Numbered from the stretch's first letter, positions 1 through 6,145 are shown. The stretch is DNA of 6,145 nt from a virus (IMGVR_UViG_2703718819_000022:1-6145), one strand, 5' to 3'. Numbers and translations are program-made. The notes: generated by a model from the letters alone, not told the origin.

Positions 1-405
1 ATGGATCAGGTCGTTGTTTTTCAAAAGATGTTTGAGCAAGTGAGAAAAGAGCAAAACTTCTCCTGGTTTTATTCAGAATTAAAACATCACCGTATTGCAC
101 ATTACATTTATTATCTGGCTACGGATAACATCAGAATTATTACTCACGATGACACGGTTTTGTTATTAAGAGGAACCAGGAACCTGTTAAAAGTTAGTAC
201 GACCAAGAACCCTGCTAAAATAAAAGAGGCCGCATTGCTTCATATTTGCGGAAAATCTACATTTCGGGAATACTGTTCAACACTAGCAGGCGCGGGCGTT
301 TTCCGGTGGGTTACTGATGTTAATCATAACAAACGCAGTTACTACGCCATTGATAATACGCTTTTATATATTGAAGATGTAGAAAATAATAAACCATTAA
401 TCTAG
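1..405 (+). CDS. hypothetical protein (134 aa), AT-rich; possible accessory/cargo gene; may be 5-prime truncated at the window edge
   Basis: ORF starts with ATG at base 1 and ends at TAG 403-405. Composition is visibly AT-rich compared with the rest of the window. No family recognised from the translation. Confidence 0.45.
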   Translation: MDQVVVFQKMFEQVRKEQNFSWFYSELKHHRIAHYIYYLATDNIRIITHDDTVLLLRGTRNLLKVSTTKNPAKIKEAALLHICGKSTFREYCSTLAGAGVFRWVTDVNHNKRSYYAIDNTLLYIEDVENNKPLI

Positions 406-639
406 CTAAAGTTGGATGCTTAAGAAATGCTGTTATATATAACTAATTTCACTTAACGCATTGATTTAATTAAATAATTTGCACTACAAAAAATGCCATA
501 AATCGCAAAATGACTACACCAGTGACTACACCGTTCGGTGCACTGTATGAAACAACGTGGAACAAATAGACACAAGAAATATACAGGCGGGTCATCTTTC
601 CAGGGGGAAGCGCGCTAATTCATGAGGGGCGTTAATGTC

Positions 640-1020
640 GATATGGGGATCCCCACCTACCGGAATTTTTTTCCGGTTAACTGTTAATCAGGCTGGTGGG
701 TTTTACATACCCTTGATCACCGTAATGATGATCCAGATCTGCACCTTTCCACCAATGGTGGAAAAGCCCACAGCAGGCCGCCCAGCCTCCACCAATGGGG
801 TAAAAGCATCAACCGTAACGAAAGTCGTTATGGTTGCCACCGATACCCCAAATTTGGGTATCACGAGTAAGCCCCAAAATCTGGGTGTTACTCTTACTAC
901 CCAAACTACGGGTAGTTTCCGTAGTTTCATGGTCGAGTTGCAGATCTGCAACTCCCCCATTAACCACAGGCGAATTTCCGCCTTCGGTCATTCCTTAATC
1001 ATCTGCGTAATCATAATGAT
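640..1020. repeat. dense array of short dyad-symmetric sequences (palindromes/hairpins), function unknown
   Basis: Seen directly: GGGGATCCCC 645-654; CCGGAA-T5-TTCCGG 660-676; CCACCA-A-TGGTGG 749-761 with degenerate copy near 787-799; AACGA-AAG-TCGTT 817-829; CCCAAATTTGGG 847-858 with degenerate copy near 872-886; AAACTACGG-N7-CCGTAGTTT 903-927; perfect 20-bp palindrome GAGTTGCAGATCTGCAACTC 935-954; AATCAT-A-ATGATT 1009-1021. Confidence 0.6.
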
Positions 1021-1023
1021 TAT

Positions 1024-1115
1024 TCAGCAAGCGCAATTTTGCGCTTTGCTTAAAGTTCAGCGAGTTACCGCGCCGACTTCCTCAAATTGAGGTTTCCGAA
1101 AATATCAACGGGTTA
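1024..1115. repeat. repeat block A: motif Y (GCGCAATTTTGCG...TCAGCGAGTTACCGCGCC, 1031-1074) followed by motif X (GTTTCCGAAAATATCAACGGGTTA, 1092-1115)
   Basis: Direct sequence comparison with block B at 1205-1277: motif X matches at 23 of 24 positions, motif Y shares two conserved sub-blocks separated by a diverged 13-nt spacer. Order of X and Y is swapped between the two blocks. Confidence 0.7.
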
Positions 1116-1139
1116 ACGATAAACTGGCGAGTAATTAAA

Positions 1140-1156
1140 CTACGAAAATTTCGTAG
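1140..1156. repeat. perfect palindrome CTACGAAA-A-TTTCGTAG (8-bp arms, 1-nt centre) lying between the two X motifs
   Basis: Read directly from sequence; reverse complement is identical apart from the central base. Confidence 0.7.
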
Positions 1157-1204
1157 CTCTGACTATCTGAAAGATAATCGTTGTTCCGGCCTCAGCCGTT
1201 GGCT

Positions 1205-1277
1205 GTTCCCGAAAATATCAACGGGTTAGGACAGAGCGCAATTTTGCGTTATCGGGAATATCAGCAAGTTACCGCCG
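1205..1277. repeat. repeat block B: motif X (GTTCCCGAAAATATCAACGGGTTA, 1205-1228) followed by motif Y (AGCGCAATTTTGCG...TCAGCAAGTTACCGCCG, 1235-1277)
   Basis: See block A. The last few codons of the 93-aa minus-strand gene overlap the end of this block. Confidence 0.7.
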
Positions 1278-1550
1278 TAATCGCTCCGGCTTCTTCCACT
1301 GGTACGTTATTTTTGCTTTTTCCCTGTACGTCTGCACGCGGCGACGGTAGGCCAGCATTTCAAGAACGCGGATCCGTATGTCGCGCATATCCGCATCATT
1401 AAGCTGGATACCATCACGGCGCATCACCTCCGCAACAACACGCACATAATTTTCGGCTGTCACGCTGTCCGGCTGCGTGGCCTGTTCGTCAGCCTGCTGG
1501 CTGATTCCGGCAACGCGACGGATTAATCGCAGTAGTTCGGCTTCTGTCAT
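1269..1550 (-). CDS. hypothetical protein (93 aa) adjacent to cos; candidate packaging-associated or regulatory factor
   Basis: The track ORF 1269..1748 begins at a GTG. The in-frame ATG at 1550-1548 is preceded by a GGGGG Shine-Dalgarno about 4 nt upstream (GATGGGGGCACA-ATG). Translation from that ATG (MTEAELLRLIRRVAG...) looks like a helical protein. No family recognised. Confidence 0.55.
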   Translation of the reverse strand: MTEAELLRLIRRVAGISQQADEQATQPDSVTAENYVRVVAEVMRRDGIQLNDADMRDIRIRVLEMLAYRRRVQTYREKAKITYQWKKPERLRR

Positions 1551-1583: not shown

Positions 1584-1654
1584 CGGGTCCTTCCTGGAAT
1601 TATGGCCCGTTACGGGGCGGCGACCTCGCGCGTTTTCACTATTTATGAAAATTT
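1584..1654 (+). other. lambda-type cos, copy 1: cosQ-like GTTACG followed by cosN GGGCGGCGACCT (1615-1626), then CGCGCGTTTTCACTATTTATGAAAATTTT
   Basis: Near-identity to the phage lambda left-end sequence as I recall it (GGGCGGCGACCTCGCGGGTTTTCGCTATTTATGAAAATTTTCCGG), including the 12-nt cohesive-end sequence. Forms an inverted repeat with 2110-2181. Confidence 0.8.
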
Positions 1655-1663
1655 TCCGGGATC

Positions 1664-1782
1664 CATGTCCGGTTTCTCTGCAAGTTAACCATATGAAAAA
1701 TATAAAAACATGCTTTCCATGAACCGGACATGCGCAAAAAACAGACACTAAAACCGGACATCGTACCAGTTAACCGGAAGTG
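1664..1782 (+). promoter_or_regulatory. cosB-like region: one CATGTCCGGTT site (1664-1674), an AT-rich spacer (about 1690-1710), then inverted sites AACCGGACATG (1722-1732), AACCGGACATC (1752-1762) and AACCGGAAGTG (1772-1782)
   Basis: Repeats read directly. Their orientation pattern and distances from cosN (about +50, +108, +138) match the R3 / I1 / R2 / R1 layout of lambda cosB as I recall it. No terminase gene follows. Confidence 0.6.
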
Positions 1783-1955
1783 TGCAAAAATCACACGCAT
1801 TGCTGCGCGTGATTAACAATTTATCGGCTTTACTGTTCTGTATAGGCTGGGTGGCGTCATGCCGTAGCCGTTCTCCGTGCCAGCATGGAATAATCCGTAG
1901 TTACAGAGCGGTAAAGTTAAAAATCACTTTCTGTTACGCCATCAAATACGCGATA

Positions 1956-2100
1956 CAACAACCATGTGTTTTTACAAAACCATTTGATATCATTGAATTT
2001 TTTCACATTAATGACATCAAAATACATCGTAAGGTTGTTGTATTTATTTTATTTTTACCTTACTTATCAATTAGATATACCAAACAATTAAACAACAACC
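1956..2100 (-). repeat. second putative terminase-binding repeat set next to cos copy 2: ACAACAACC 1956-1964, GGTTGTTGT 2033-2041, ACAACAACC 2092-2100, with an AT-rich tract between
   Basis: Short repeats read directly. Relative to cosN copy 2 they sit at about +45, +110 and +190 on the minus strand with one site inverted. The motif is short, so chance occurrence is possible. Confidence 0.3.
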
Positions 2101-2109
2101 ACCCCCTCA

Positions 2110-2181
2110 AAAAATCTCATAAATAGCGAAAAACCGCGAGGTCGCCGCCCCGTAACGGGTCCATATGCCGGAAAGGACCCG
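2110..2181 (-). other. lambda-type cos, copy 2 (inverted): cosN GGGCGGCGACCT is the reverse complement of 2139-2150, preceded on the minus strand by GTTACG
   Basis: Minus-strand reading CGGGTCCTTTCCGGCATATGGACCCGTTACGGGGCGGCGACCTCGCGGTTTTTCGCTATTTATGAGATTTTTT aligns at roughly 85 percent (by eye) with copy 1 at 1584-1654, and is even closer to the recalled lambda sequence in the CGCGG-TTTTCGCTATTTATGA part. Confidence 0.75.
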
Positions 2182-2182
2182 T

Positions 2183-2206
2183 AAAAAAAAGCCGGATTTC
2201 TCCGGC
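2183..2206 (-). terminator. intrinsic terminator ending the capsid operon
   Basis: Hairpin GCCGGA-TTTC-TCCGGC (2191-2206) followed on the minus strand by T8 (plus-strand A-run 2183-2190), starting 7 nt after the stop codon at 2213-2215. Confidence 0.8.
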
Positions 2207-2212
2207 CTTGTC

Positions 2213-2626
2213 TCAGATGGTTTTCAGTATGCGATCGATGTCGCCGTCATCGCCCTGGTTTCTGCCATCGTACGCCATGCCAGCTGATACGGCTTGCGGG
2301 CTGTGCATGTCCATAAAGTTTTCAAAGGCTGCGGTAAGCTCTGGTGCAACCTTTGGGCGCTCCTGCTCTATGGTCATGTTCAGGATTTCACGAGCATTAT
2401 CGACGCTAATACATGGCACGTTTGCCATTGCACGTAACAGCGGCTGATAGTCGTTATGTTCATGAAGCGCCATAATCGCATCAGCGCGCGGCTTGTCCTG
2501 TTCTTCCAGTTTGTTGAGTTGATATACGGCCTCGTAGGTTGATAAACCTCTGTCAGCCATTGCCCGCGCTTCTGCTTTAAATTTACTCGCCAGCGGTAGC
2601 GCCATGATGCTTTCATTCGTTGCCAT
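2213..2626 (-). CDS. hypothetical protein (137 aa), last gene of the capsid operon
   Basis: ATG at 2626-2624 preceded by AGGGGA about 5 nt upstream; 12-nt gap after the gpD-like stop; followed immediately by the terminator. No family recognised. Confidence 0.65.
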   Translation of the reverse strand: MATNESIMALPLASKFKAEARAMADRGLSTYEAVYQLNKLEEQDKPRADAIMALHEHNDYQPLLRAMANVPCISVDNAREILNMTIEQERPKVAPELTAAFENFMDMHSPQAVSAGMAYDGRNQGDDGDIDRILKTI

Positions 2627-2638
2627 CGTTTCCCCTGC

Positions 2639-2974
2639 TTATCGCGCCAGCGGCTGAACGGATACGCCAGAACCCGCAAAGGCGGCGCATTTTTTCGCGT
2701 CAGTGTCGGCGCTCTCAGGCCAGTTTACGGCGGCGATATTAAATATCCCCGTCTTGTAACACTGTGCTGATTTCTGCTTTGACGTGTCCACGGGGTACGA
2801 AGTCAGATAAACAGCCTTGCCAGATTCCTGACCATCCCACGGCTTAAACTCGCCATTGTCCGCCAGCATCAGCGGGGTAAATTCCTGAATAACGCCAGCA
2901 TCAGCGGCAAAATGTACCAGCGTCGTGGATACCTGCTGACTGCCTGCAAATAACTCAATGTATGGAGTGTCCAT
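2639..2974 (-). CDS. head decoration protein, phage lambda gpD-like (111 aa)
   Basis: By-eye alignment with recalled lambda gpD: TPLMLADNGEFKPWDG vs TPLMLDTSSRKLVAWDG, and CYKTGIFNIAAVNWPESADTDAKKCAAFAGSGVSV vs [42 protein letters not shown] Shine-Dalgarno 6 nt upstream of the ATG at 2974. Confidence 0.85.
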   Translation of the reverse strand: MDTPYIELFAGSQQVSTTLVHFAADAGVIQEFTPLMLADNGEFKPWDGQESGKAVYLTSYPVDTSKQKSAQCYKTGIFNIAAVNWPESADTDAKKCAAFAGSGVSVQPLAR

Positions 2975-2986
2975 AGAATCCCCCCG

Positions 2987-4042
2987 TTAACCAATTTTGA
3001 CGGTAACAAATTTGCGAATATCTGCCGGAACCGGCTGCGGTGCGCTGTGCGTCTGCACGTACTCAATCGCCGGATCGCCGTCCTCAATCCAGTTTTTCGG
3101 GTAAAACATGTTTTGCGTTGCGCCCGTTCTTACCGCTTCCTGTTCCATAATCGCACCATAGGCCACCAGCCCTTTATTGTTGGTGTTGCCCAGGACCAGC
3201 AAATCAGGCTCAAGGAAATATTTTTCTGTGCCGTCGCTGTCAGTGTATTTGCCGGAATAGACGATAAGGGCCAGATCACCAAGATAGCCCTTAAAGCTCA
3301 CCACTTCGCCCAGGTTTTTACATGCCAGCTCTGCGGCGGATTCTGAACCACGGGAAAGATCGTACAGCTCACGGAATTTTTTAAAGCTGCGTAACATGCG
3401 CCATACATCAACGCCCATAATCATGACGTTGGCGGGGCAACCTGCCTGATCTGCGTATAGCTCAATGTCATAGATTGGATCGTGTATGTCTTTATCCTGC
3501 TCGGACCATTTTTTACCGTCGGCCTGCTCTATGATGTTTTTTTCCGGTATCTTCCAGTCGATTTCATAGCGCTCTATGCCTTCGCCCTCAATGATGTTTT
3601 TTCCGGTCGTTACCGCATTTACCGCCAGCCATTCCACGCGCGCTTTAATGGCGTTTATCTGGCGGCGCATGTTGCCAGTAATCAGGCGCATACGGCGGTA
3701 GGTAGGGTCGTTAAGCTGTGCCGGATCTTCTCCAGCCATGCGCATTATTGTTTTTAATGGATCGATTTCGTGTTTTGGCTTCATGTAGCCAGGGCGAATA
3801 ATGCTGGTTTCGTACCCTTTATCGCGCTGAACCAGGCTACCAACCATAGGCGAACAAAACGCCGACATAGTGACTTCTTCAATATCCAGGTTATCTAACA
3901 TGATGTCCTGTGTGTTGAATGTCGCCACGTTCGGGAAAAACAGCGCGGTAAACAGCGGACTGAATTTAAATTCCGCAATATCCTCGCGATTCAGGTACGC
4001 AAAAAGCTGGTTAGTGTTAAGTGCTATTGCTTTTACTGTCAT
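2987..4042 (-). CDS. major capsid protein, phage lambda gpE-like (351 aa)
   Basis: Full-length by-eye alignment with recalled lambda gpE (341 aa): EFKFSPLF / KFKFDPLF; PGYMKPKHEIDP / PGYVKPKHEVNP; EDPAQLNDPTYRRMRLI / EDPQNLADPAYRRRRII; LRSFKKFRELYDLSRGSESAAELACKNLGEVVSFKGYLGDLALIVYSGKY / FRSFKAVKEKLDTRRGSNSELETAVKDLGKAVSYKGMYGDVAIVVYSGQY; YPKNWIEDGDPAIEY..SAP / YPKNWVTTGDPAREF..SAP. GGGGGTGA Shine-Dalgarno; start overlaps the upstream stop as TAATG. Confidence 0.92.
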   Translation of the reverse strand: MTVKAIALNTNQLFAYLNREDIAEFKFSPLFTALFFPNVATFNTQDIMLDNLDIEEVTMSAFCSPMVGSLVQRDKGYETSIIRPGYMKPKHEIDPLKTIMRMAGEDPAQLNDPTYRRMRLITGNMRRQINAIKARVEWLAVNAVTTGKNIIEGEGIERYEIDWKIPEKNIIEQADGKKWSEQDKDIHDPIYDIELYADQAGCPANVMIMGVDVWRMLRSFKKFRELYDLSRGSESAAELACKNLGEVVSFKGYLGDLALIVYSGKYTDSDGTEKYFLEPDLLVLGNTNNKGLVAYGAIMEQEAVRTGATQNMFYPKNWIEDGDPAIEYVQTHSAPQPVPADIRKFVTVKIG

Positions 4043-4248
4043 TATTCACCCCCGTGAACCTGATTCATACCCAGCGCCGCGCGTAAATAGGCGCGTACCT
4101 GCCAGCCTGTTGACGGCTCAACCATCGCCAGCGGATCAAGTCCTGCCGCAATGCCTGCTTTTACGTTCTGCTGGTGGCGTTCCTTGAGCGCCTTCACGAT
4201 GTCGGGGCTTATGTACACCGAAACACCGCCTTTTTTCTCTTCAGCCAT
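4042..4248 (-). CDS. hypothetical protein (68 aa), first gene of the capsid operon, translationally coupled to the capsid gene
   Basis: ATG at 4248-4246 with AAGAGGA Shine-Dalgarno about 10 nt upstream; stop TAA overlaps the gpE-like ATG (TAATG). No family recognised. Confidence 0.6.
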   Translation of the reverse strand: MAEEKKGGVSVYISPDIVKALKERHQQNVKAGIAAGLDPLAMVEPSTGWQVRAYLRAALGMNQVHGGE

Positions 4249-4283
4249 AGTAAGAAATTCCTCTTTGACTTAAAAAATCATAA

Positions 4284-4299
4284 CTGGATGTTCATCCAG
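4284..4299. promoter_or_regulatory. operator-like dyad CTGGATG-TT-CATCCAG overlapping the predicted transcription start of the capsid operon
   Basis: Perfect 7-bp inverted arms with 2-bp spacer, read directly. Geometry is CTG-N10-CAG, the LexA-box geometry, but the interior is not the AT-rich consensus. Confidence 0.45.
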
Positions 4300-4304
4300 A
4301 TCTG

Positions 4305-4332
4305 ATTATAATCATGATTGCATTTTATGCAA
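4305..4332 (-). promoter_or_regulatory. sigma70 promoter for the capsid operon: -35 TTGCAT (4332-4327), 16-bp spacer, -10 TATAAT (4310-4305)
   Basis: Near-consensus hexamers read on the minus strand, about 50 nt upstream of the 68-aa ORF start. The -35 sits inside a second dyad TTGCAT-TTT-ATGCAA (4318-4332). Confidence 0.65.
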
Positions 4333-4410
4333 TGATGTTGAGTTGTGTTGCAAATTATGAAATGATGATCCCGATCATGTGTGTCAGTGCACAAAAAAAA
4401 CCTCATATGC

Positions 4411-4453: not shown

Positions 4454-4459
4454 GGGTAC

Positions 4460-4481
4460 AAAAAAGCCGGATTACTCCGGC
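4460..4481 (-). terminator. intrinsic terminator for the ssb / 90-aa transcript
   Basis: Hairpin GCCGGA-TTAC-TCCGGC (4466-4481) followed on the minus strand by T6 (plus-strand A-run 4460-4465), 7 nt after the stop at 4488-4490. Confidence 0.75.
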
Positions 4482-4760: not shown

Positions 4761-4770
4761 CGTCACCCCC

Positions 4771-5181
4771 TCAGAACTGAATATCATCACCGTAGGGGTC
4801 ATCGTCTCCCGCTGGTGGCTGATTACCCTGTGTGCCTGTGGTTTTGCGTCTGTTCCCGCCAGGACGTGCCGCACGGGCACTGATTACGCTGTCTGCAATA
4901 ACCTGATAACCCTGCCGCGTTTCCCCGTTCTGTCCGGTCCACTGGCTGACCTGCATCGTGCCGGATACGCTGGCAACGTCGCCTTTTTGATGTTTAGCCA
5001 GGAAGTCGGCCTGCTTACCAAATGCGATGACCGATAGCCATAACGTCGCCTGCCCATCCTGCGCCTGACTACATGGCAACGATACCGCCATACGTGCCAG
5101 CGTCATTGGTGTGCCCTTGCTGGTCTGTTTTACCTGCGGGTCGTCCACCAGCCGCCCGTAAGCTGCTATCTGTGCTGTCAT
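4771..5181 (-). CDS. ssb: single-stranded DNA-binding protein (136 aa)
   Basis: OB-fold-like core alignable by eye with E. coli SSB (WLSVIAFGKQADFLAKHQKGDVASVSGTMQVSQWTGQNGETRQGYQVIADSV vs [51 protein letters not shown]). Gly/Pro-rich linker and acidic C-terminal tip DDDPYGDDIQF (compare DFDDDIPF). GGAGAGG Shine-Dalgarno. Confidence 0.85.
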   Translation of the reverse strand: MTAQIAAYGRLVDDPQVKQTSKGTPMTLARMAVSLPCSQAQDGQATLWLSVIAFGKQADFLAKHQKGDVASVSGTMQVSQWTGQNGETRQGYQVIADSVISARAARPGGNRRKTTGTQGNQPPAGDDDPYGDDIQF

Positions 5182-5457
5182 GATTCCACCTCTCCGGTTT
5201 TAACGTTGATGGTTGTTACCTGTTCCGCTTCGGCAATCTCCCGCTCTGTCAGCGTGGCAAAATTTGCCGCCGTCGTGGTCATGAATGCGCTTATCAGTTC
5301 GGGATGTGCTTTCGCGTATCCTTCCCCCCGCGTGGCGGTCTATCGTTCTGATTGCCACCTTTAAAGCGTGCTCTGTCATGTCTAACGCGCGATATTTCGG
5401 TTCTGTTCTGTCTCTGCGTTTTTTGAGTGATTTGTTAAATCTTCCTGATGTGTGCAT
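5178..5457 (-). pseudogene. small gene immediately upstream of ssb, apparently split between two reading frames at a C6/G6 homopolymer (5324-5329)
   Basis: Frame 1 (track ORF 5200..5457, ATG at 5457) gives a plausible N-terminus (MHTSGRFNKSLKKRRDRTEPKYRALDMTEHALKVAIRTIDRH) and then low-complexity sequence. A second frame, open from 5339 to a TGA at 5178-5180, gives protein-like sequence (GEGYAKAHPELISAFMTTTAANFATLTEREIAEAEQVTTINVKTGEVES) and ends in an ATGA overlap with the ssb start codon. The two frames meet at the homopolymer. Confidence 0.4.
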
Positions 5458-5505: not shown

Positions 5506-5729
5506 CCTCTACCTCTCTACCTAATCATCTTTCATGTCAGTAATGGCGCGGCTTTCAGATGGGTAGAGGGCTTTCGTGGCCCTCTACCCATCCTCTACCC
5601 GCCCCTCACAAACGATCTTAATCATGGTAGAAGAGGTAGAGAGGTTTTATTAGCCTTCTACCTAGCCCTCTACCCACTTATCATGTTGAATAATATGCGT
5701 TTATTTCATTCAGGTAGATGGGGTAGAGG
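5506..5729. repeat. iteron array, putative replication origin: at least 11 copies of CCTCTACC / GGTAGAGG in alternating paired orientation, separated by AT-rich spacers
   Basis: Copies read directly at 5506-5513, 5514-5521, 5562-5569 (inv), 5581-5588, 5592-5599, 5626-5633 (inv, degenerate), 5635-5644 (inv), 5654-5662 (degenerate), 5667-5674, 5713-5720 (inv, degenerate), 5722-5729 (inv). Includes a perfect 14-bp-arm inverted repeat GATGGGTAGAGGGC-N7-GCCCTCTACCCATC at 5558-5592. Lies directly after the C-terminus of the gene at 5744..6145. Confidence 0.7.
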
Positions 5730-5743
5730 GCTTTTACAAAAAA

Positions 5744-6145
5744 TTATAAAAACGCGTCACAATCATCAGTTGTAATTGCGTTGGTCTGCGTTACTCCCTT
5801 AACTCTCCGCGTAATATATTCATGTCCGTAAACTTTTGCCGCTGGCTTCATGGCCTTGCTGAACTCAGCCACGTTTAGCGGTTTGCTCCTGCCTGCGTAT
5901 GCCATAAACGCCAGATAGACGCGGTAAAGGCTGTTTCTGGTCGTGTACTTCACTGAATCGCCACCGCCGCCCATCATCAGGCCGCGTGCTTCCTCCAGAA
6001 AATTCAGGAACTGGCAAAACTCAATAACCGGATCCGTCTGTTGCTTTATTGCCAGAGCTTCATCACCGTCGCGCTGTTCCAGTAATAAAGCCCGTGCCTT
6101 TTCAGGGTCGGCAAAATTAGCCAGCAAGCGACGGATAATTACGGG
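5744..6145 (-). CDS. C-terminal fragment of a larger protein running off the right edge; putative replication initiator (primase/Rep-like) by position next to the iteron origin
   Basis: The reading frame is open to the window edge: the track start at 6127 is a TTG and the codons upstream of it (PVIIRR) continue in frame to base 6145. Stop at 5744-5746 immediately flanks the iterons. Function is inferred from synteny only. Confidence 0.5.
   Translation of the reverse strand, partial: PVIIRRLLANFADPEKARALLLEQRDGDEALAIKQQTDPVIEFCQFLNFLEEARGLMMGGGGDSVKYTTRNSLYRVYLAFMAYAGRSKPLNVAEFSKAMKPAAKVYGHEYITRRVKGVTQTNAITTDDCDAFL

What the first reader, a model, noticed from the sequence alone, without database searches (positions are those of the whole stretch)
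2183..4332. Stand-alone capsid operon (gpE-like capsid + gpD-like decoration) with no other head genes nearby
A self-contained transcription unit (consensus sigma70 promoter with operator dyads, four tightly packed genes, intrinsic terminator) encodes a lambda gpE-like major capsid protein and a gpD-like decoration protein plus two unknown small proteins. Upstream are ssb, an iteron origin and a replication gene; downstream is an orphan cos site. There is no portal, protease, scaffold, terminase or head-completion gene in the window, whereas in lambda these are contiguous with D and E. That is what a satellite-like element would look like if it made its own capsid shell while borrowing the rest of the virion from a helper, and I do not recognise this arrangement as a described satellite family.
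Basis: partly seen in the sequence, partly recalled or inferred. Interest (0 to 1): 0.8.

Follow-up and report, generated by a model that had tools for sequence, protein, structure and literature searches.

The report
Capsid gene cassette of known PICI
This is the capsid-gene cassette of an already described E. coli phage satellite (the EcCICFT073 type of phage-inducible chromosomal island); the arrangement is ordinary for that family, but what the cassette does is still unknown, and one of its two "unknown" genes turns out to be a lambda Nu3-type scaffold homologue.

Summary
On the minus strand, 2183-4332 contains four tightly packed genes between a promoter-like region and an intrinsic terminator: p68, a gpE-like capsid protein (Pfam 1e-48), a gpD-like decoration protein (1e-17) and p137. 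The claim that the arrangement is undescribed does not hold. The window is about 92% identical to the model satellite EcCICFT073, whose c1499 (capsid) and c1500 (decoration) genes and two cos sites were reported in 2018. The capsid protein closely matches crystal structure 3BQW, and a capsid gene is reported in 21 of 29 reference Gram-negative PICIs. The full cassette is in 597 of 5,426 complete E. coli genomes. Published work found no phenotype for c1499 or c1500 deletions, and islands with c1498-c1501 replaced by cargo are still transduced by phi80. My additions: p137 is a shortened Nu3/gp6-type scaffold (hhalign 96.6%); satellite capsid proteins form their own clade (at least 53% identical to each other, at most 46% to phage proteins) with reversed gene order; all four genes are under purifying selection; the marked islands in the 2018-2019 assays carried their markers inside this cassette. 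Best guess, at about 40%: a non-essential shell kit that adds satellite-made subunits to capsids built on helper portals. Verdict: already known; low to moderate interest.

The parts
4284..4363 (-). Promoter and operator region of the cassette. It has a -35-like TTGCAT at 4332-4327, a 16-nt spacer and a perfect -10 TATAAT at 4310-4305. Tandem dyads of the form ATTGCA-N5-TGCAAT lie at 4333-4317 (over the -35) and 4363-4347. A second dyad, CTGGATGAACATCCAG, lies at 4299-4284.
   Evidence: Sequence read. The region is conserved across islands whose capsid proteins are only 62% identical. The tandem dyads recur upstream of p68 homologues in E. coli and Edwardsiella islands, with one copy in Salmonella, and are absent from the p68-less islands scanned. 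The automated scan found no minus-strand promoter here because the -35 matches only 3 of 6.
4042..4248 (-). p68, a 68-aa protein of unknown function and the first gene of the cassette. By locus-tag order it corresponds to CFT073 c1498. Its stop codon overlaps the capsid gene's start. It is a possible DNA-binding regulator of the upstream dyads, but that is a weak inference.
   Evidence: It matches phrog_3255, a family of unknown function, at 8e-37, and has no Pfam or NCBIfam hit. Homologues at 60-68% identity occur in Salmonella and Pluralibacter. The AlphaFold2 model has pLDDT 74 with a beta-hairpin and two helices. There is no fold match in the PDB or BFVD.
2987..4042 (-). Satellite major capsid protein, 351 aa, gpE/HK97 fold. 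It is the homologue of CFT073 c1499.
   Evidence: Pfam Phage_cap_E at 1.2e-48 and phrog_29 at 4e-106. It is 43% identical to lambda gpE along the whole length and at most 47.6% identical to any phage in INPHARED. It matches PDB 3BQW at 2e-228. dN/dS is 0.13-0.16. It belongs to a satellite-only clade.
2639..2974 (-). Satellite head-decoration protein, 111 aa, gpD/SHP family. It is the homologue of CFT073 c1500.
   Evidence: Pfam HDPD at 1e-17 and phrog_49 at 4e-27. It is 37% identical to lambda gpD over 76 aa. The closest solved structure is phage 21 SHP, 1TD0, at 6e-13. dN/dS is 0.03-0.10 among E. coli copies. It always lies directly downstream of the capsid gene in the satellite loci examined.
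2213..2626 (-). p137, a shortened Nu3/gp6-type scaffold homologue with no protease domain. It has two 44-aa tandem repeats (residues 5-48 and 49-92) and a conserved C-terminal tail, FENFMDMHSP...DIDRILKTI. By locus-tag order it corresponds to CFT073 c1501.
   Evidence: It matches phrog_53 (head maturation protease) at profile positions 494-567 of 583, E 7e-10. BLASTP to phage 21 gp5/gp6 C-terminus gives 37% identity over 83 aa, E 2e-10 to 3e-11. An exhaustive profile search recovers gp6-like scaffolds, with P0135 at 3e-8. hhalign against Nu3/gp6 scaffolds, including lambda Nu3, gives 96.6% probability, E 5.8e-10. Natural 93-aa variants lack exactly one repeat. dN/dS is 0.18-0.43.
2181..2209 (-). 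Intrinsic terminator that ends the cassette.
   Evidence: Stem-loop AAGGCCGGAGAAATCCGGCTTT followed by a T run. A near-copy of it terminates the upstream perC gene at 4482-4456.
2110..2181 (-). cos site, minus orientation. cosN GGGCGGCGACCT lies at 2150-2139, with a cosQ-like flank on its right.
   Evidence: It is one arm of inverted repeat I1 (72 nt, 83% complementary). It aligns with the left ends of lambda and phage 21 through cosN and about 40 bp beyond, then diverges. Both cos sites of EcCICFT073 were shown to be functional (PMC6092414).
1584..1655 (+). cos site, plus orientation. cosN lies at 1615-1626. It is convergent with the other cos site, 454 nt away.
1656..2109 (.). Segment between the two cos sites. 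It is AT-rich filler (35.7% GC at 1801-2100) plus a 22-codon remnant of the rppA C-terminus at 1846-1911, inverted relative to CFT073. This island copy therefore has neither an Rpp nor a Nu1-like small terminase gene.
   Evidence: tblastn with CFT073 RppA, composition profile and alignment to L002. In other islands this position holds rppA (CFT073) or a Nu1-like terS gene (L018-20, L022).
1269..1550 (-). p93, a conserved 93-aa protein of unknown function next to the plus-orientation cos site. It is not Rpp.
   Evidence: It matches phrog_1561 at 2e-55. It is present in the E. coli islands examined. RppA is 144 aa (PMC6739421).
4488..4760 (-). PerC-family regulator gene, separated from the cassette by two terminator-like hairpins at 4482-4465 and 4450-4411.
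   Evidence: Pfam PerC at 1.6e-44; hairpins. It is absent from islands L018 and L020, which keep the same cassette promoter.
4771..5181 (-). Single-strand DNA-binding protein gene of the island.
   Evidence: Pfam SSB at 4e-17.
5506..5729 (.). Replication-origin iterons: GGTAGAGG six times, on both strands.
   Evidence: Six matches against 0.09 expected by chance; see also repeats D20 and I2. PICI origins lie 3' of pri-rep (PMC6092414).
5744..6145 (-). C-terminal end of the island's primase/replicase gene (pri-rep). It runs off the window.
   Evidence: Pfam Pox_D5 at 2.8e-5. It is 100% identical to the C-terminus of 'DNA primase family protein' in L001.

Best explanation
Identity (shown, about 0.97). 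The region is the c1498-c1501 'capsid module' of a classical Gram-negative phage-inducible chromosomal island (PICI) of the EcCICFT073 type. Such islands are about 11 kb, are bounded by an integrase, and carry alpA, pri-rep with iterons, ssb and lambda-type cos sites.

Status of the genes (shown). All four genes are intact, under purifying selection, and belong to an old satellite-specific lineage rather than to a recently captured or decaying phage head module.

Mechanism (inferred, about 0.4).
1. During helper induction the cassette is transcribed from its own operator-controlled promoter.
2. The satellite capsid protein, chaperoned by the Nu3-like scaffold p137, assembles on the helper's portal and protease complex. 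This gives shells made wholly or partly of satellite subunits.
3. Helper terminase fills these shells with island concatemers from the island's cos sites.
4. After expansion, the cognate decoration protein locks the lattice.
5. The helper supplies the head-completion proteins and the tail.

The kit is accessory. With lambda or phi80 in the laboratory, helper capsids are enough, so its loss has no visible effect. Its benefit would appear with other helpers or under other conditions.
For: Identity:
- The window is 91-98% identical over more than 80% of its length to islands in 12 complete genomes, including CFT073.
- The neighbourhoods read int-alpA-icd-like-primase-ssb-perC-cassette-cos and are bounded by chromosomal genes.
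- The literature names c1499 and c1500 as capsid and decoration genes.

The genes are functional:
- dN/dS against five E. coli copies is 0.13-0.16 for the capsid gene, 0.03-0.10 for the decoration gene and 0.18-0.43 for p137. No copy has an internal stop. The island's own ssb gives 0.08-0.30.
- The full cassette is present in 597 of 5,426 complete genomes.

Old satellite lineage:
- Satellite capsid proteins from nine genera are monophyletic. They are 52.9-94.9% identical to each other and 38-45.6% identical to lambda, phage 21 or helper-prophage proteins.
- This holds even for islands embedded in a prophage whose E protein is 98% identical to lambda's.
- The gene order is always capsid then decoration, the reverse of phages.

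Structural role:
- The capsid protein aligns with gpE end to end with only two gap positions, and its crystal structure exists (3BQW).
- p137 is a Nu3/gp6 scaffold homologue.
- A decoration protein is only useful on an expanded, DNA-filled shell, and it is the most constrained gene in the cassette.

Regulation: the promoter and its dyads are conserved across lineages.
Against: - Deleting c1499 or c1500 did not restore lambda plaques and did not change transfer by the resident prophages. DNA packaged with a lambda helper was phage-sized (PMC6092414).
- Synthetic islands with all of c1498-c1501 replaced by cas9 or melA are still transduced by phi80 delta-cos (PMC10530653, PMC10460865). The cassette is therefore dispensable for transfer in helper capsids.
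- I found no report of satellite capsid protein in particles.
- Many satellite lineages have the capsid and decoration genes but no p137 homologue, so a dedicated scaffold is not universal.
- At only 38-46% identity to helper capsid proteins, co-assembly into a mixed lattice is uncertain.
- This particular island copy lacks Rpp and TerS, so its own packaging ability is unclear.
Confidence: 0.55

Rival explanations
1. Size-redirection kit. The alternative capsid protein (as with SaPIbov5 Ccm) and the shortened scaffold (as with SaPI1 CpmB) redirect assembly on the helper portal into smaller shells, for example T=4 shells holding about two island units. The cognate decoration protein stabilises them. 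This would favour island DNA and exclude the helper genome.
For: - The cassette combines a capsid homologue with a shortened Nu3-type scaffold that has 2 repeats, against 3 in phage 21 gp6.
- Satellites of other families do use a capsid homologue or an alternative scaffold to make small capsids (PMC6893505). PmCI172, another Gram-negative PICI with a capsid homologue, makes small capsids.
- The 2018 negative size result, and the 2019 work that cites it, relied on islands marked as c1501::tetA or with c1499 replaced by cat, so the cassette was disrupted.
Against: - With a lambda helper, only phage-sized DNA was found in particles.
- No 'PICI monomer' band appeared on induction of CFT073.
- Size-neutral and cargo-bearing islands transfer well in full-size capsids.
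- Most satellite lineages lack the scaffold gene.
Confidence: 0.18
2. Interference device. The satellite capsid protein and/or the protease-less scaffold act as dominant-negative subunits. They poison helper procapsid assembly or maturation, for example if p137 competes with the helper's gpC/Nu3 for the capsid interior. This would add a second layer of interference beside Rpp.
For: - The C-terminal tail of p137 is homologous to the region shared by the helper protease and scaffold.
- Redundant interference layers are usual in SaPIs and can mask single deletions (PMC6893505).
- Deleting c1499 or c1500 left interference intact, as expected while RppA is present.
Against: - Expressing each gene located after the origin from a plasmid showed that only c1503 (rppA) reduced lambda plaques. 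Deleting rppA restored plaque formation and raised titres nearly to those on the island-free host (PMC6739421).
- A decoration protein under the strongest constraint in the cassette has no obvious role in poisoning.
Confidence: 0.1
3. Back-up copy for the helper-embedded lifestyle, or a capture from helpers. The island carries capsid genes because relatives integrate into, and interrupt, the helper's own E or portal gene. The satellite copy would replace the interrupted function, or it may simply be a captured late gene.
For: - Relatives embedded in helper E genes (L015, L016, L009, L011) and in a portal gene (L017) were found.
- This was proposed in PMC10111431.
Against: - The satellite capsid protein is only 38-46% identical to the interrupted helper E and belongs to a separate clade, so it is not a recent capture.
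- The window's island and many others are not embedded in a prophage.
- Excision restores the helper gene in any case.
Confidence: 0.08
4. Non-functional remnant of an ancestral head module, or an ordinary rearranged prophage head region.
For: - No phenotype has been found in any published test.
- The region has been used as a neutral cargo site, the 'adaptable module'.
Against: - dN/dS is 0.03-0.43, and the reading frames are intact in all copies examined, across nine genera.
- The promoter is conserved.
- The cassette is in 11% of complete E. coli genomes.
- The surrounding genes are those of a satellite, not a prophage.
Confidence: 0.03

Closest known systems
EcCICFT073 (E. coli CFT073 PICI), genes c1498-c1501; Fillol-Salom et al. 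2018 (PMC6092414) and 2019 (PMC6739421)
   Same: It has the same four-gene cassette in the same order. Protein identities to the window are 98.5% for p68, 95% for the capsid protein, 97% for the decoration protein and 93% for p137. It also has the same promoter, the same two lambda-type cos sites, and the same ssb, iterons and primase upstream.
   Different: - The window's island lacks rppA and keeps only a 22-codon remnant of it, in inverted orientation.
- Its chromosomal junction is different: ycgX, against phoQ in CFT073.
- It is closer to the two islands of STEC2018-607, at 97-99% identity.
SaPIbov5 Ccm (capsid-protein homologue of a cos-packaged staphylococcal satellite)
   Same: Both are cos-packaged satellites that encode a homologue of the helper's HK97-fold capsid protein but no portal or terminase (PMC6893505).
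   Different: - Ccm is experimentally shown to enter the shells and make small capsids. No such activity has been shown here, and with a lambda helper only phage-sized DNA was seen.
- This cassette also carries a decoration protein and a scaffold homologue.
SaPI1 CpmB (alternative internal scaffold)
   Same: Both are small, helical, satellite-encoded proteins that could act inside the procapsid. p137 is a shortened version of the helper-type scaffold.
   Different: CpmB is not described as a homologue of the phage scaffold in the papers read here, and it acts on the helper's capsid protein. p137 is a true Nu3/gp6 homologue encoded next to the satellite's own capsid gene. Its activity has not been tested.
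cf-PICIs (for example EcCIEDL933; Alqurainy et al., bioRxiv 10.1101/2022.09.08.507074)
   Same: They share the same int, alpA and rep backbone, and their satellite-encoded capsid proteins also form clades separate from those of phages.
   Different: cf-PICIs encode the full set (capsid protein, protease, portal, connectors, HNH, TerS and TerL) and demonstrably build their own small capsids. Here only the capsid protein, the decoration protein and a scaffold homologue are present.
Head genes of lambda and phage 21: C/Nu3-D-E, and 5/6-shp-7
   Same: All three structural products are homologous: gpE/gp7, gpD/SHP and the C-terminal part of Nu3/gp6.
   Different: - The gene order is capsid-decoration-scaffold instead of scaffold-decoration-capsid.
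- The scaffold is a free-standing gene without the protease it is nested in.
- There are no adjacent portal or terminase genes.
- Sequences have diverged to 37-46% identity.
PmCI172 (Pasteurella multocida PICI)
   Same: It is a Gram-negative PICI with a capsid-protein homologue and no other head genes.
   Different: PmCI172 makes small capsids with a Mu-like myovirus helper. The gene responsible has not been identified, and I did not test whether its capsid homologue is related to this one.

Membership tests
Classical Gram-negative PICI (EcCICFT073 type) | pri-rep replication gene followed by an iteron origin | tested here: met
   The primase C-terminus is at 5744-6145, and six GGTAGAGG iterons lie at 5506-5729.
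Classical Gram-negative PICI (EcCICFT073 type) | Integrase at one end and an alpA regulator, genes largely in one direction, size 10-20 kb | tested here: inconclusive
   These genes lie outside the 6.1-kb window. They are present in the 97-99% identical islands L001 and L021 (int, HTH/alpA-type regulator, about 11 kb, bounded by tRNA-Pro/yejO or by the split tqsA gene) and in CFT073.
Classical Gram-negative PICI (EcCICFT073 type) | Packaging module after the origin: helper-type cos site(s) plus an Rpp or TerS homologue | tested here: inconclusive
   There are two lambda-type cos sites. Only a 22-codon remnant of rppA is present, and there is no terS gene. The cos part is met; the Rpp/TerS part is not met in this copy.
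Classical Gram-negative PICI (EcCICFT073 type) | No complete set of phage structural or lysis genes | tested here: met
   Only the capsid protein, the decoration protein and a scaffold homologue are present. There is no portal, protease, TerL, tail or lysis gene in the window or in L001 and L021.
Classical Gram-negative PICI (EcCICFT073 type) | Induction, excision, replication and transfer depend on a helper phage | not testable with these tools
   This was shown experimentally for EcCICFT073 (PMC6092414), but not for this copy.
Capsid-forming PICI (cf-PICI) | [quoted passage not shown] | tested here: not met
   No Pfam or tblastn hit to a portal, S49 protease or TerL in the window or in islands L001, L002 and L021. 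The feature list is from the cf-PICI preprint.
Helper-embedded PICI (HE-PICI) | [quoted passage not shown] | tested here: not met
   The window's left flank is the core chromosomal gene ycgX. Relatives L009, L011 and L015-17 are embedded.
P4-like satellite | Sid external scaffold, Psu decoration protein, Delta activator and P2-type cos | tested here: not met
   No hit to such families. The cos site is lambda-type. Only the primase is of the P4/D5 class.
Lambda Nu3 / phage 21 gp6 scaffold family (for p137) | Repeat unit (..IMxL.EA.G.E..A..LA..PGMTV..A..LL) and C-terminal FxxFMxxHSPxAV tail | tested here: met
   BLASTP E 3e-11, profile search hit P0135 at 3e-8 and hhalign 96.6% probability. The alignment shows two repeats plus the tail.
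Lambda Nu3 / phage 21 gp6 scaffold family (for p137) | Nested in frame within the 3' part of the head protease gene; acts as the internal scaffold of the procapsid | tested here: not met
   p137 is a free-standing gene with no protease domain upstream. Scaffold activity itself cannot be tested with these tools.
Phage head-tail connector (NCBI's name for many p137 homologues) | Similarity to a connector or adaptor family | tested here: not met
   No hit in Pfam, NCBIfam or PDB sequence searches. The only family-level link is to the protease/scaffold C-terminus.
SaPIbov5 Ccm-type size redirection | The satellite capsid homologue enters the shells and produces small capsids | not testable with these tools
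   The published size assay for EcCICFT073 was negative. The islands moved into the lambda lysogen carried their markers inside the cassette.

The most novel reading that the evidence does not exclude
The cassette is a working 'shell kit'. With its natural helpers and an intact c1498-c1501, the island would build capsids, possibly smaller ones, from its own capsid protein, Nu3-like scaffold and decoration protein, on a stolen portal. That would make classical capsid-bearing PICIs a functional intermediate between satellites that only remodel helper capsids and cf-PICIs that steal only tails. The activity would have been missed because the marked islands used in the 2018 and 2019 capsid-size and transfer assays carried the marker inside c1501 or in place of c1499.
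Probability: 0.2. Interest if true: 0.7.

Novelty: already known. Interest (0 to 1): 0.3.

Why it matters
The arrangement itself is textbook for Gram-negative PICIs, so the finding as stated adds nothing new.

What remains interesting is a paradox. A capsid, decoration and scaffold set is present in about 11% of complete E. coli genomes. It has been conserved as a satellite-specific lineage across at least nine enterobacterial genera and is under clear purifying selection. Yet every laboratory test so far has found it dispensable.

Resolving this would show whether classical PICIs contribute their own subunits to virions. That in turn bears on:
- helper range;
- escape from capsid-sensing defence systems;
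- the evolutionary route to capsid-forming PICIs;
- the design of PICI-based delivery vehicles, which currently discard this region as a cargo site.

Identifying p137 as a Nu3-type scaffold, and noting where the markers sat in the published constructs, makes the question directly testable.

Tried and rejected
Searches and predictions that led nowhere:
1. A scan of one genome per species using patterns from the single capsid protein found nothing. The rescan with an alignment gave only four loci. The survey therefore rests on 20 or so loci plus BLAST counts, not on a census.
2. The AlphaFold2 model of p137 was too poor to use (pLDDT 46), so I ran no fold search on it.
3. I suspected from its sequence pattern that p68 is a ribbon-helix-helix protein. 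The model (pLDDT 74) has no significant match in the PDB or BFVD, so the idea is unconfirmed.
4. NCBIfam has no model for any of the four proteins.
5. Rfam and tRNA scans of the window found nothing.

Ideas I corrected or dropped:
6. I first labelled the 93-aa ORF beside cos as Rpp. That was wrong: RppA is 144 aa and is absent here apart from a remnant.
7. I first read window 428-1168 as tqsA coding sequence and the DUF1398 gene as a prophage gene. Window 444-1270 is in fact the island's own non-coding end, and the DUF1398 gene is the chromosomal gene ycgX.
8. PerC as the cassette's activator is not supported: islands without perC keep the same promoter.
9. The encapsulin or nanocompartment reading was dropped. 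3BQW appears in that literature only as a representative of the fold, and there is no cargo gene.

Full report
THE OBSERVATION

The finding's genes lie on the minus strand:
- p68, 4045-4248;
- a 351-aa capsid protein, 2990-4042;
- a 111-aa decoration protein, 2642-2974;
- p137, 2216-2626.

The stop codon of p68 overlaps the capsid gene's start, and the other two gaps are 12 nt each.

The capsid protein matches Pfam Phage_cap_E at 1.2e-48, and the decoration protein matches HDPD at 1e-17. BLASTP gives 43% identity to lambda gpE along the whole protein and 37% identity to gpD over 76 residues.

The unit ends at an intrinsic terminator at 2209-2188. It is insulated from the upstream perC gene by two hairpins, at 4482-4465 and 4450-4411.

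The promoter scan found nothing on the minus strand. By eye the promoter reads TTGCAT - 16 nt - TATAAT at 4332-4305, so the -10 is perfect but the -35 is weak.
- ATTGCA-N5-TGCAAT lies over the -35, with a second copy 30 bp upstream.
- CTGGATGAACATCCAG lies just downstream of the -10.

The first pair is conserved even in islands whose capsid protein is only 62% identical.

Upstream of the cassette are PerC, SSB, six GGTAGAGG iterons (0.09 expected by chance) and the C-terminus of a primase.

Downstream there are two cos sites, not one. They are convergent and 454 nt apart. Each carries lambda's exact cosN (GGGCGGCGACCT, at 1615-1626 on the plus strand and 2139-2150 on the minus strand), a cosQ-like flank and about 40 bp of lambda-like sequence. 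Beyond that they diverge from lambda's cosB.

WHAT THE ELEMENT IS

The window is 91-98% identical over more than 80% of its length to islands in 12 complete E. coli genomes, among them CFT073. The annotated neighbourhoods show an island of about 11 kb with this layout: integrase, HTH/alpA-type regulator, icd-like gene, DUF4222, primase, ssb, perC, the four-gene cassette, cos sites. It is bounded by ordinary chromosomal genes.

The CFT073 copy is the published model satellite EcCICFT073. Fillol-Salom et al. [quoted passage not shown] PMC10111431 notes that a capsid gene is present in 21 of 29 reference Gram-negative PICIs, and Dokland's review makes the same point.

The capsid protein has even been crystallised. 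PDB 3BQW, 'putative capsid protein of prophage', matches the window's protein at 2e-228.

The full cassette, at 80% coverage or more, is present in 597 of 5,426 complete E. coli genomes.

NEW DETAIL ON THE TWO 'UNKNOWN' PROTEINS

p137 hits the C-terminal end of the lambda-type head protease family (phrog_53, profile positions 494-567 of 583). In lambda-type phages that region is the nested scaffold Nu3. Further evidence:
- BLASTP to phage 21 gp5/gp6 gives 37% identity over 83 residues, E 2e-10 to 3e-11.
- An exhaustive HMMER search of 1.84 billion representative proteins found only 12 hits. Among them were gp6-type scaffolds with the same repeats and the same FxxFMxxHSP tail.
- A profile-to-profile comparison with Nu3/gp6 scaffolds, including lambda Nu3, gives 96.6% probability, E 5.8e-10.

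p137 consists of two 44-residue tandem repeats plus the tail. These are the 'Tri boxes' annotated in phage 21. Natural 93-aa variants lack exactly one repeat. A 141-aa homologue follows the decoration gene in a second E. coli island lineage.

So the window does contain a scaffold-type gene, but without the protease it is normally nested in. NCBI's label 'phage head-tail connector protein' for many p137 homologues found no support.

p68 remains unassigned. It matches phrog_3255 of unknown function. Its model has pLDDT 74, and there is no fold match. It co-occurs with the tandem dyads, which hints at a regulator. Because only two lineages can be compared, this is weak evidence.

EVOLUTIONARY STATUS

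I examined satellite loci from E. coli, Salmonella, Edwardsiella, Serratia, Kluyvera, Cedecea, Superficieibacter and Kosakonia, and included a capsid protein from Lelliottia in the tree.
- In every locus the capsid gene is followed directly by the decoration gene, the reverse of the phage order.
- The pair lies downstream of an int-alpA-primase/helicase backbone.
- No island contains a portal, protease or large terminase gene.

Satellite capsid proteins are 52.9-94.9% identical to one another but only 38-45.6% identical to lambda E, phage 21 gp7 or the E protein of a helper prophage. They form a single clade in a neighbour-joining tree (no bootstrap was run). No phage in INPHARED exceeds 47.6% identity. 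The separation holds even for islands embedded in a prophage whose E is 98% identical to lambda's.

Pairwise Nei-Gojobori dN/dS against five E. coli copies:

| gene | dN/dS |
|---|---|
| capsid protein | 0.13-0.16 |
| decoration protein | 0.03-0.10 |
| p137 | 0.18-0.43 |
| p68 (three informative comparisons, few substitutions) | 0.14-0.61 |
| island ssb, for comparison | 0.08-0.30 |

No copy has an internal stop. The cassette is therefore a maintained, satellite-specific module, not a recent capture or a decaying remnant.

WHAT EXPERIMENTS SAY, AND THEIR LIMITS

Published negative results:
- Deleting c1499 or c1500 did not restore lambda plaques and did not change transfer by the resident prophages.
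- DNA packaged with a lambda helper was phage-sized.
- Interference and packaging were explained instead by RppA (c1503), a 144-aa protein that redirects the helper's TerS.
- Synthetic islands in which c1498-c1501, exactly these four genes, were replaced by cas9 or melA are still transduced by phi80 delta-cos. The region is called the island's 'adaptable module'.

The cassette is therefore dispensable for transfer in helper capsids in the laboratory.

One caveat emerges from the papers themselves. [quoted passage not shown] The capsid-size and transfer assays that relied on these marked islands therefore used an island in which the scaffold homologue or the capsid gene was already disrupted. 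A later construct, c1504-c1507::cat, leaves the cassette intact, but I found no analysis of particle composition or size for it.

MOST LIKELY MECHANISM (INFERRED)

I commit to the following, at about 40%. The cassette is an accessory shell kit.
1. It is expressed from its own regulated promoter during helper induction.
2. The satellite capsid protein, with p137 acting as scaffold, assembles on the helper's portal and protease.
3. Helper terminase fills the shell from the island's cos sites.
4. The cognate decoration protein stabilises the expanded lattice.
5. The helper supplies everything else.

The argument rests on four points:
- a full-length, crystallisable HK97-fold protein;
- a true scaffold homologue encoded beside it;
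- the fact that a decoration protein is only useful on an expanded, filled shell, yet it is the most constrained gene in the cassette;
- long-term purifying selection.

Rivals:
- size redirection in the manner of Ccm or CpmB (0.18);
- dominant-negative interference (0.10), weakened because only c1503 blocked lambda when the genes after the origin were expressed singly;
- a back-up copy for the helper-embedded lifestyle (0.08), weakened because the satellite clade is old and distinct;
- a non-functional remnant (0.03), contradicted by the selection analysis.

THIS PARTICULAR COPY

The window is closest to two islands of strain STEC2018-607: 99.2% identical to the copy in tqsA and 97.3% to the copy at tRNA-Pro.

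Between its cos sites it has only a 22-codon, inverted remnant of rppA plus AT-rich filler. It therefore has neither an Rpp nor a Nu1-like TerS gene, unlike CFT073 and islands L018-20 and L022.

Its left end joins the island's non-coding terminus to the core gene ycgX. That junction is absent from all 5,426 complete genomes searched. I could not extend the source contig, so 'no head genes within 10 kb' rests on the near-identical relatives.

VERDICT

The arrangement is already known. Interest is low to moderate (0.3). What lifts it above routine is the unresolved function of a widespread, selected capsid cassette, together with two points that make the question testable: the scaffold identity of p137 and the position of the markers in the published constructs.

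Noticed in passing
window 1584-2181; compare L018 7743-9442 with L022 3236-4933: The segment between the two inverted cos sites occurs in both orientations in different genomes. The Nu1-like terS gene is co-oriented with the capsid genes in L018-20 but opposite to them in L022. In the window, the rppA remnant is inverted relative to CFT073. The cos-flanked segment therefore looks invertible, which would swap which cos site sits next to the packaging gene.
   Followed up: partly
window 1656-2109: This island variant, like L001 and L021, has lost rppA apart from 22 codons at 1846-1911 and carries no terS gene. The slot is filled with 35.7% GC DNA that has no convincing ORF. How such a copy could be packaged, if it can be at all, is unclear.
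   Followed up: partly
window 1-443: The left end is the core chromosomal gene ycgX (DUF1398; normally bluR-ycgX-ymgL-iraM-icd). It is joined at about 427/428 to the island terminus, which in strain STEC2018-607 abuts a split tqsA gene. No complete E. coli genome among the 5,426 searched spans this junction. It could be a new integration site, a rearrangement or an assembly chimera.
   Followed up: partly
L001 and L021 (NZ_CP075697.1): One strain, STEC2018-607, carries two nearly identical copies of this island, at tRNA-Pro/yejM and within tqsA. The window looks like a mosaic of the two. It follows the tqsA copy on the left, but it contains the ssb segment (4763-5189) that this copy lacks and that the tRNA-Pro copy has.
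   Followed up: partly
window 444-1270: The island's distal end is about 830 bp with no convincing ORF, yet it is conserved at 92-100% identity between islands. It is rich in repeats: a 24-nt unit GTTYCCGAAAATATCAACGGGTTA three times (1092, 1205, 1248), AGCGCAATTTTGCG twice, and several short palindromes. Its function is unknown. There is no Rfam hit.
   Followed up: no
window 4317-4363, and upstream of p68 homologues in L005, L012, L013 and L017: Tandem dyads of the form ATTGCA-N5-TGCAAT, 30 bp apart, overlap the -35 of the cassette promoter. They are conserved in E. coli and Edwardsiella islands, with one copy in the Salmonella island, all of which encode p68. They are absent from the p68-less islands scanned. 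This suggests a dedicated regulator, perhaps p68 itself.
   Followed up: partly
window 2216-2626; proteins P0090, P0092, P0094: Natural 93-aa variants of p137 lack exactly residues 21-64, which is one 44-residue repeat. The repeat number in this scaffold family therefore varies: one in these variants and in lambda Nu3, two in p137, three in phage 21 gp6.
   Followed up: yes
window 2216-2626: NCBI names many homologues of p137 'phage head-tail connector protein'. No Pfam, NCBIfam or PDB search supports that name. The only detectable relationship is to the Nu3/gp6 scaffold, so the name looks like a propagated mis-annotation.
   Followed up: yes
window 5200-5457: The 85-aa ORF between ssb and the iterons is annotated as a frameshifted pseudogene in the identical stretch of L001 and L021. 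It matches the CFT073 homologue in two pieces with different identities (90% and 46%), so it may be disrupted in this island.
   Followed up: no
L009, L011, L015, L016, L017: Relatives of this island are inserted inside the capsid gene E, or the portal gene, of lambda-like prophages, as in the published helper-embedded PICIs. Each still carries its own divergent capsid and decoration pair.
   Followed up: partly
window 2181-2206 and 4456-4481: The terminators after the cassette and after perC are 92% identical 26-nt copies (GTAMAAAAAAGCCGGATTWCTCCGGC). This suggests a duplicated terminator module flanking the cassette.
   Followed up: no
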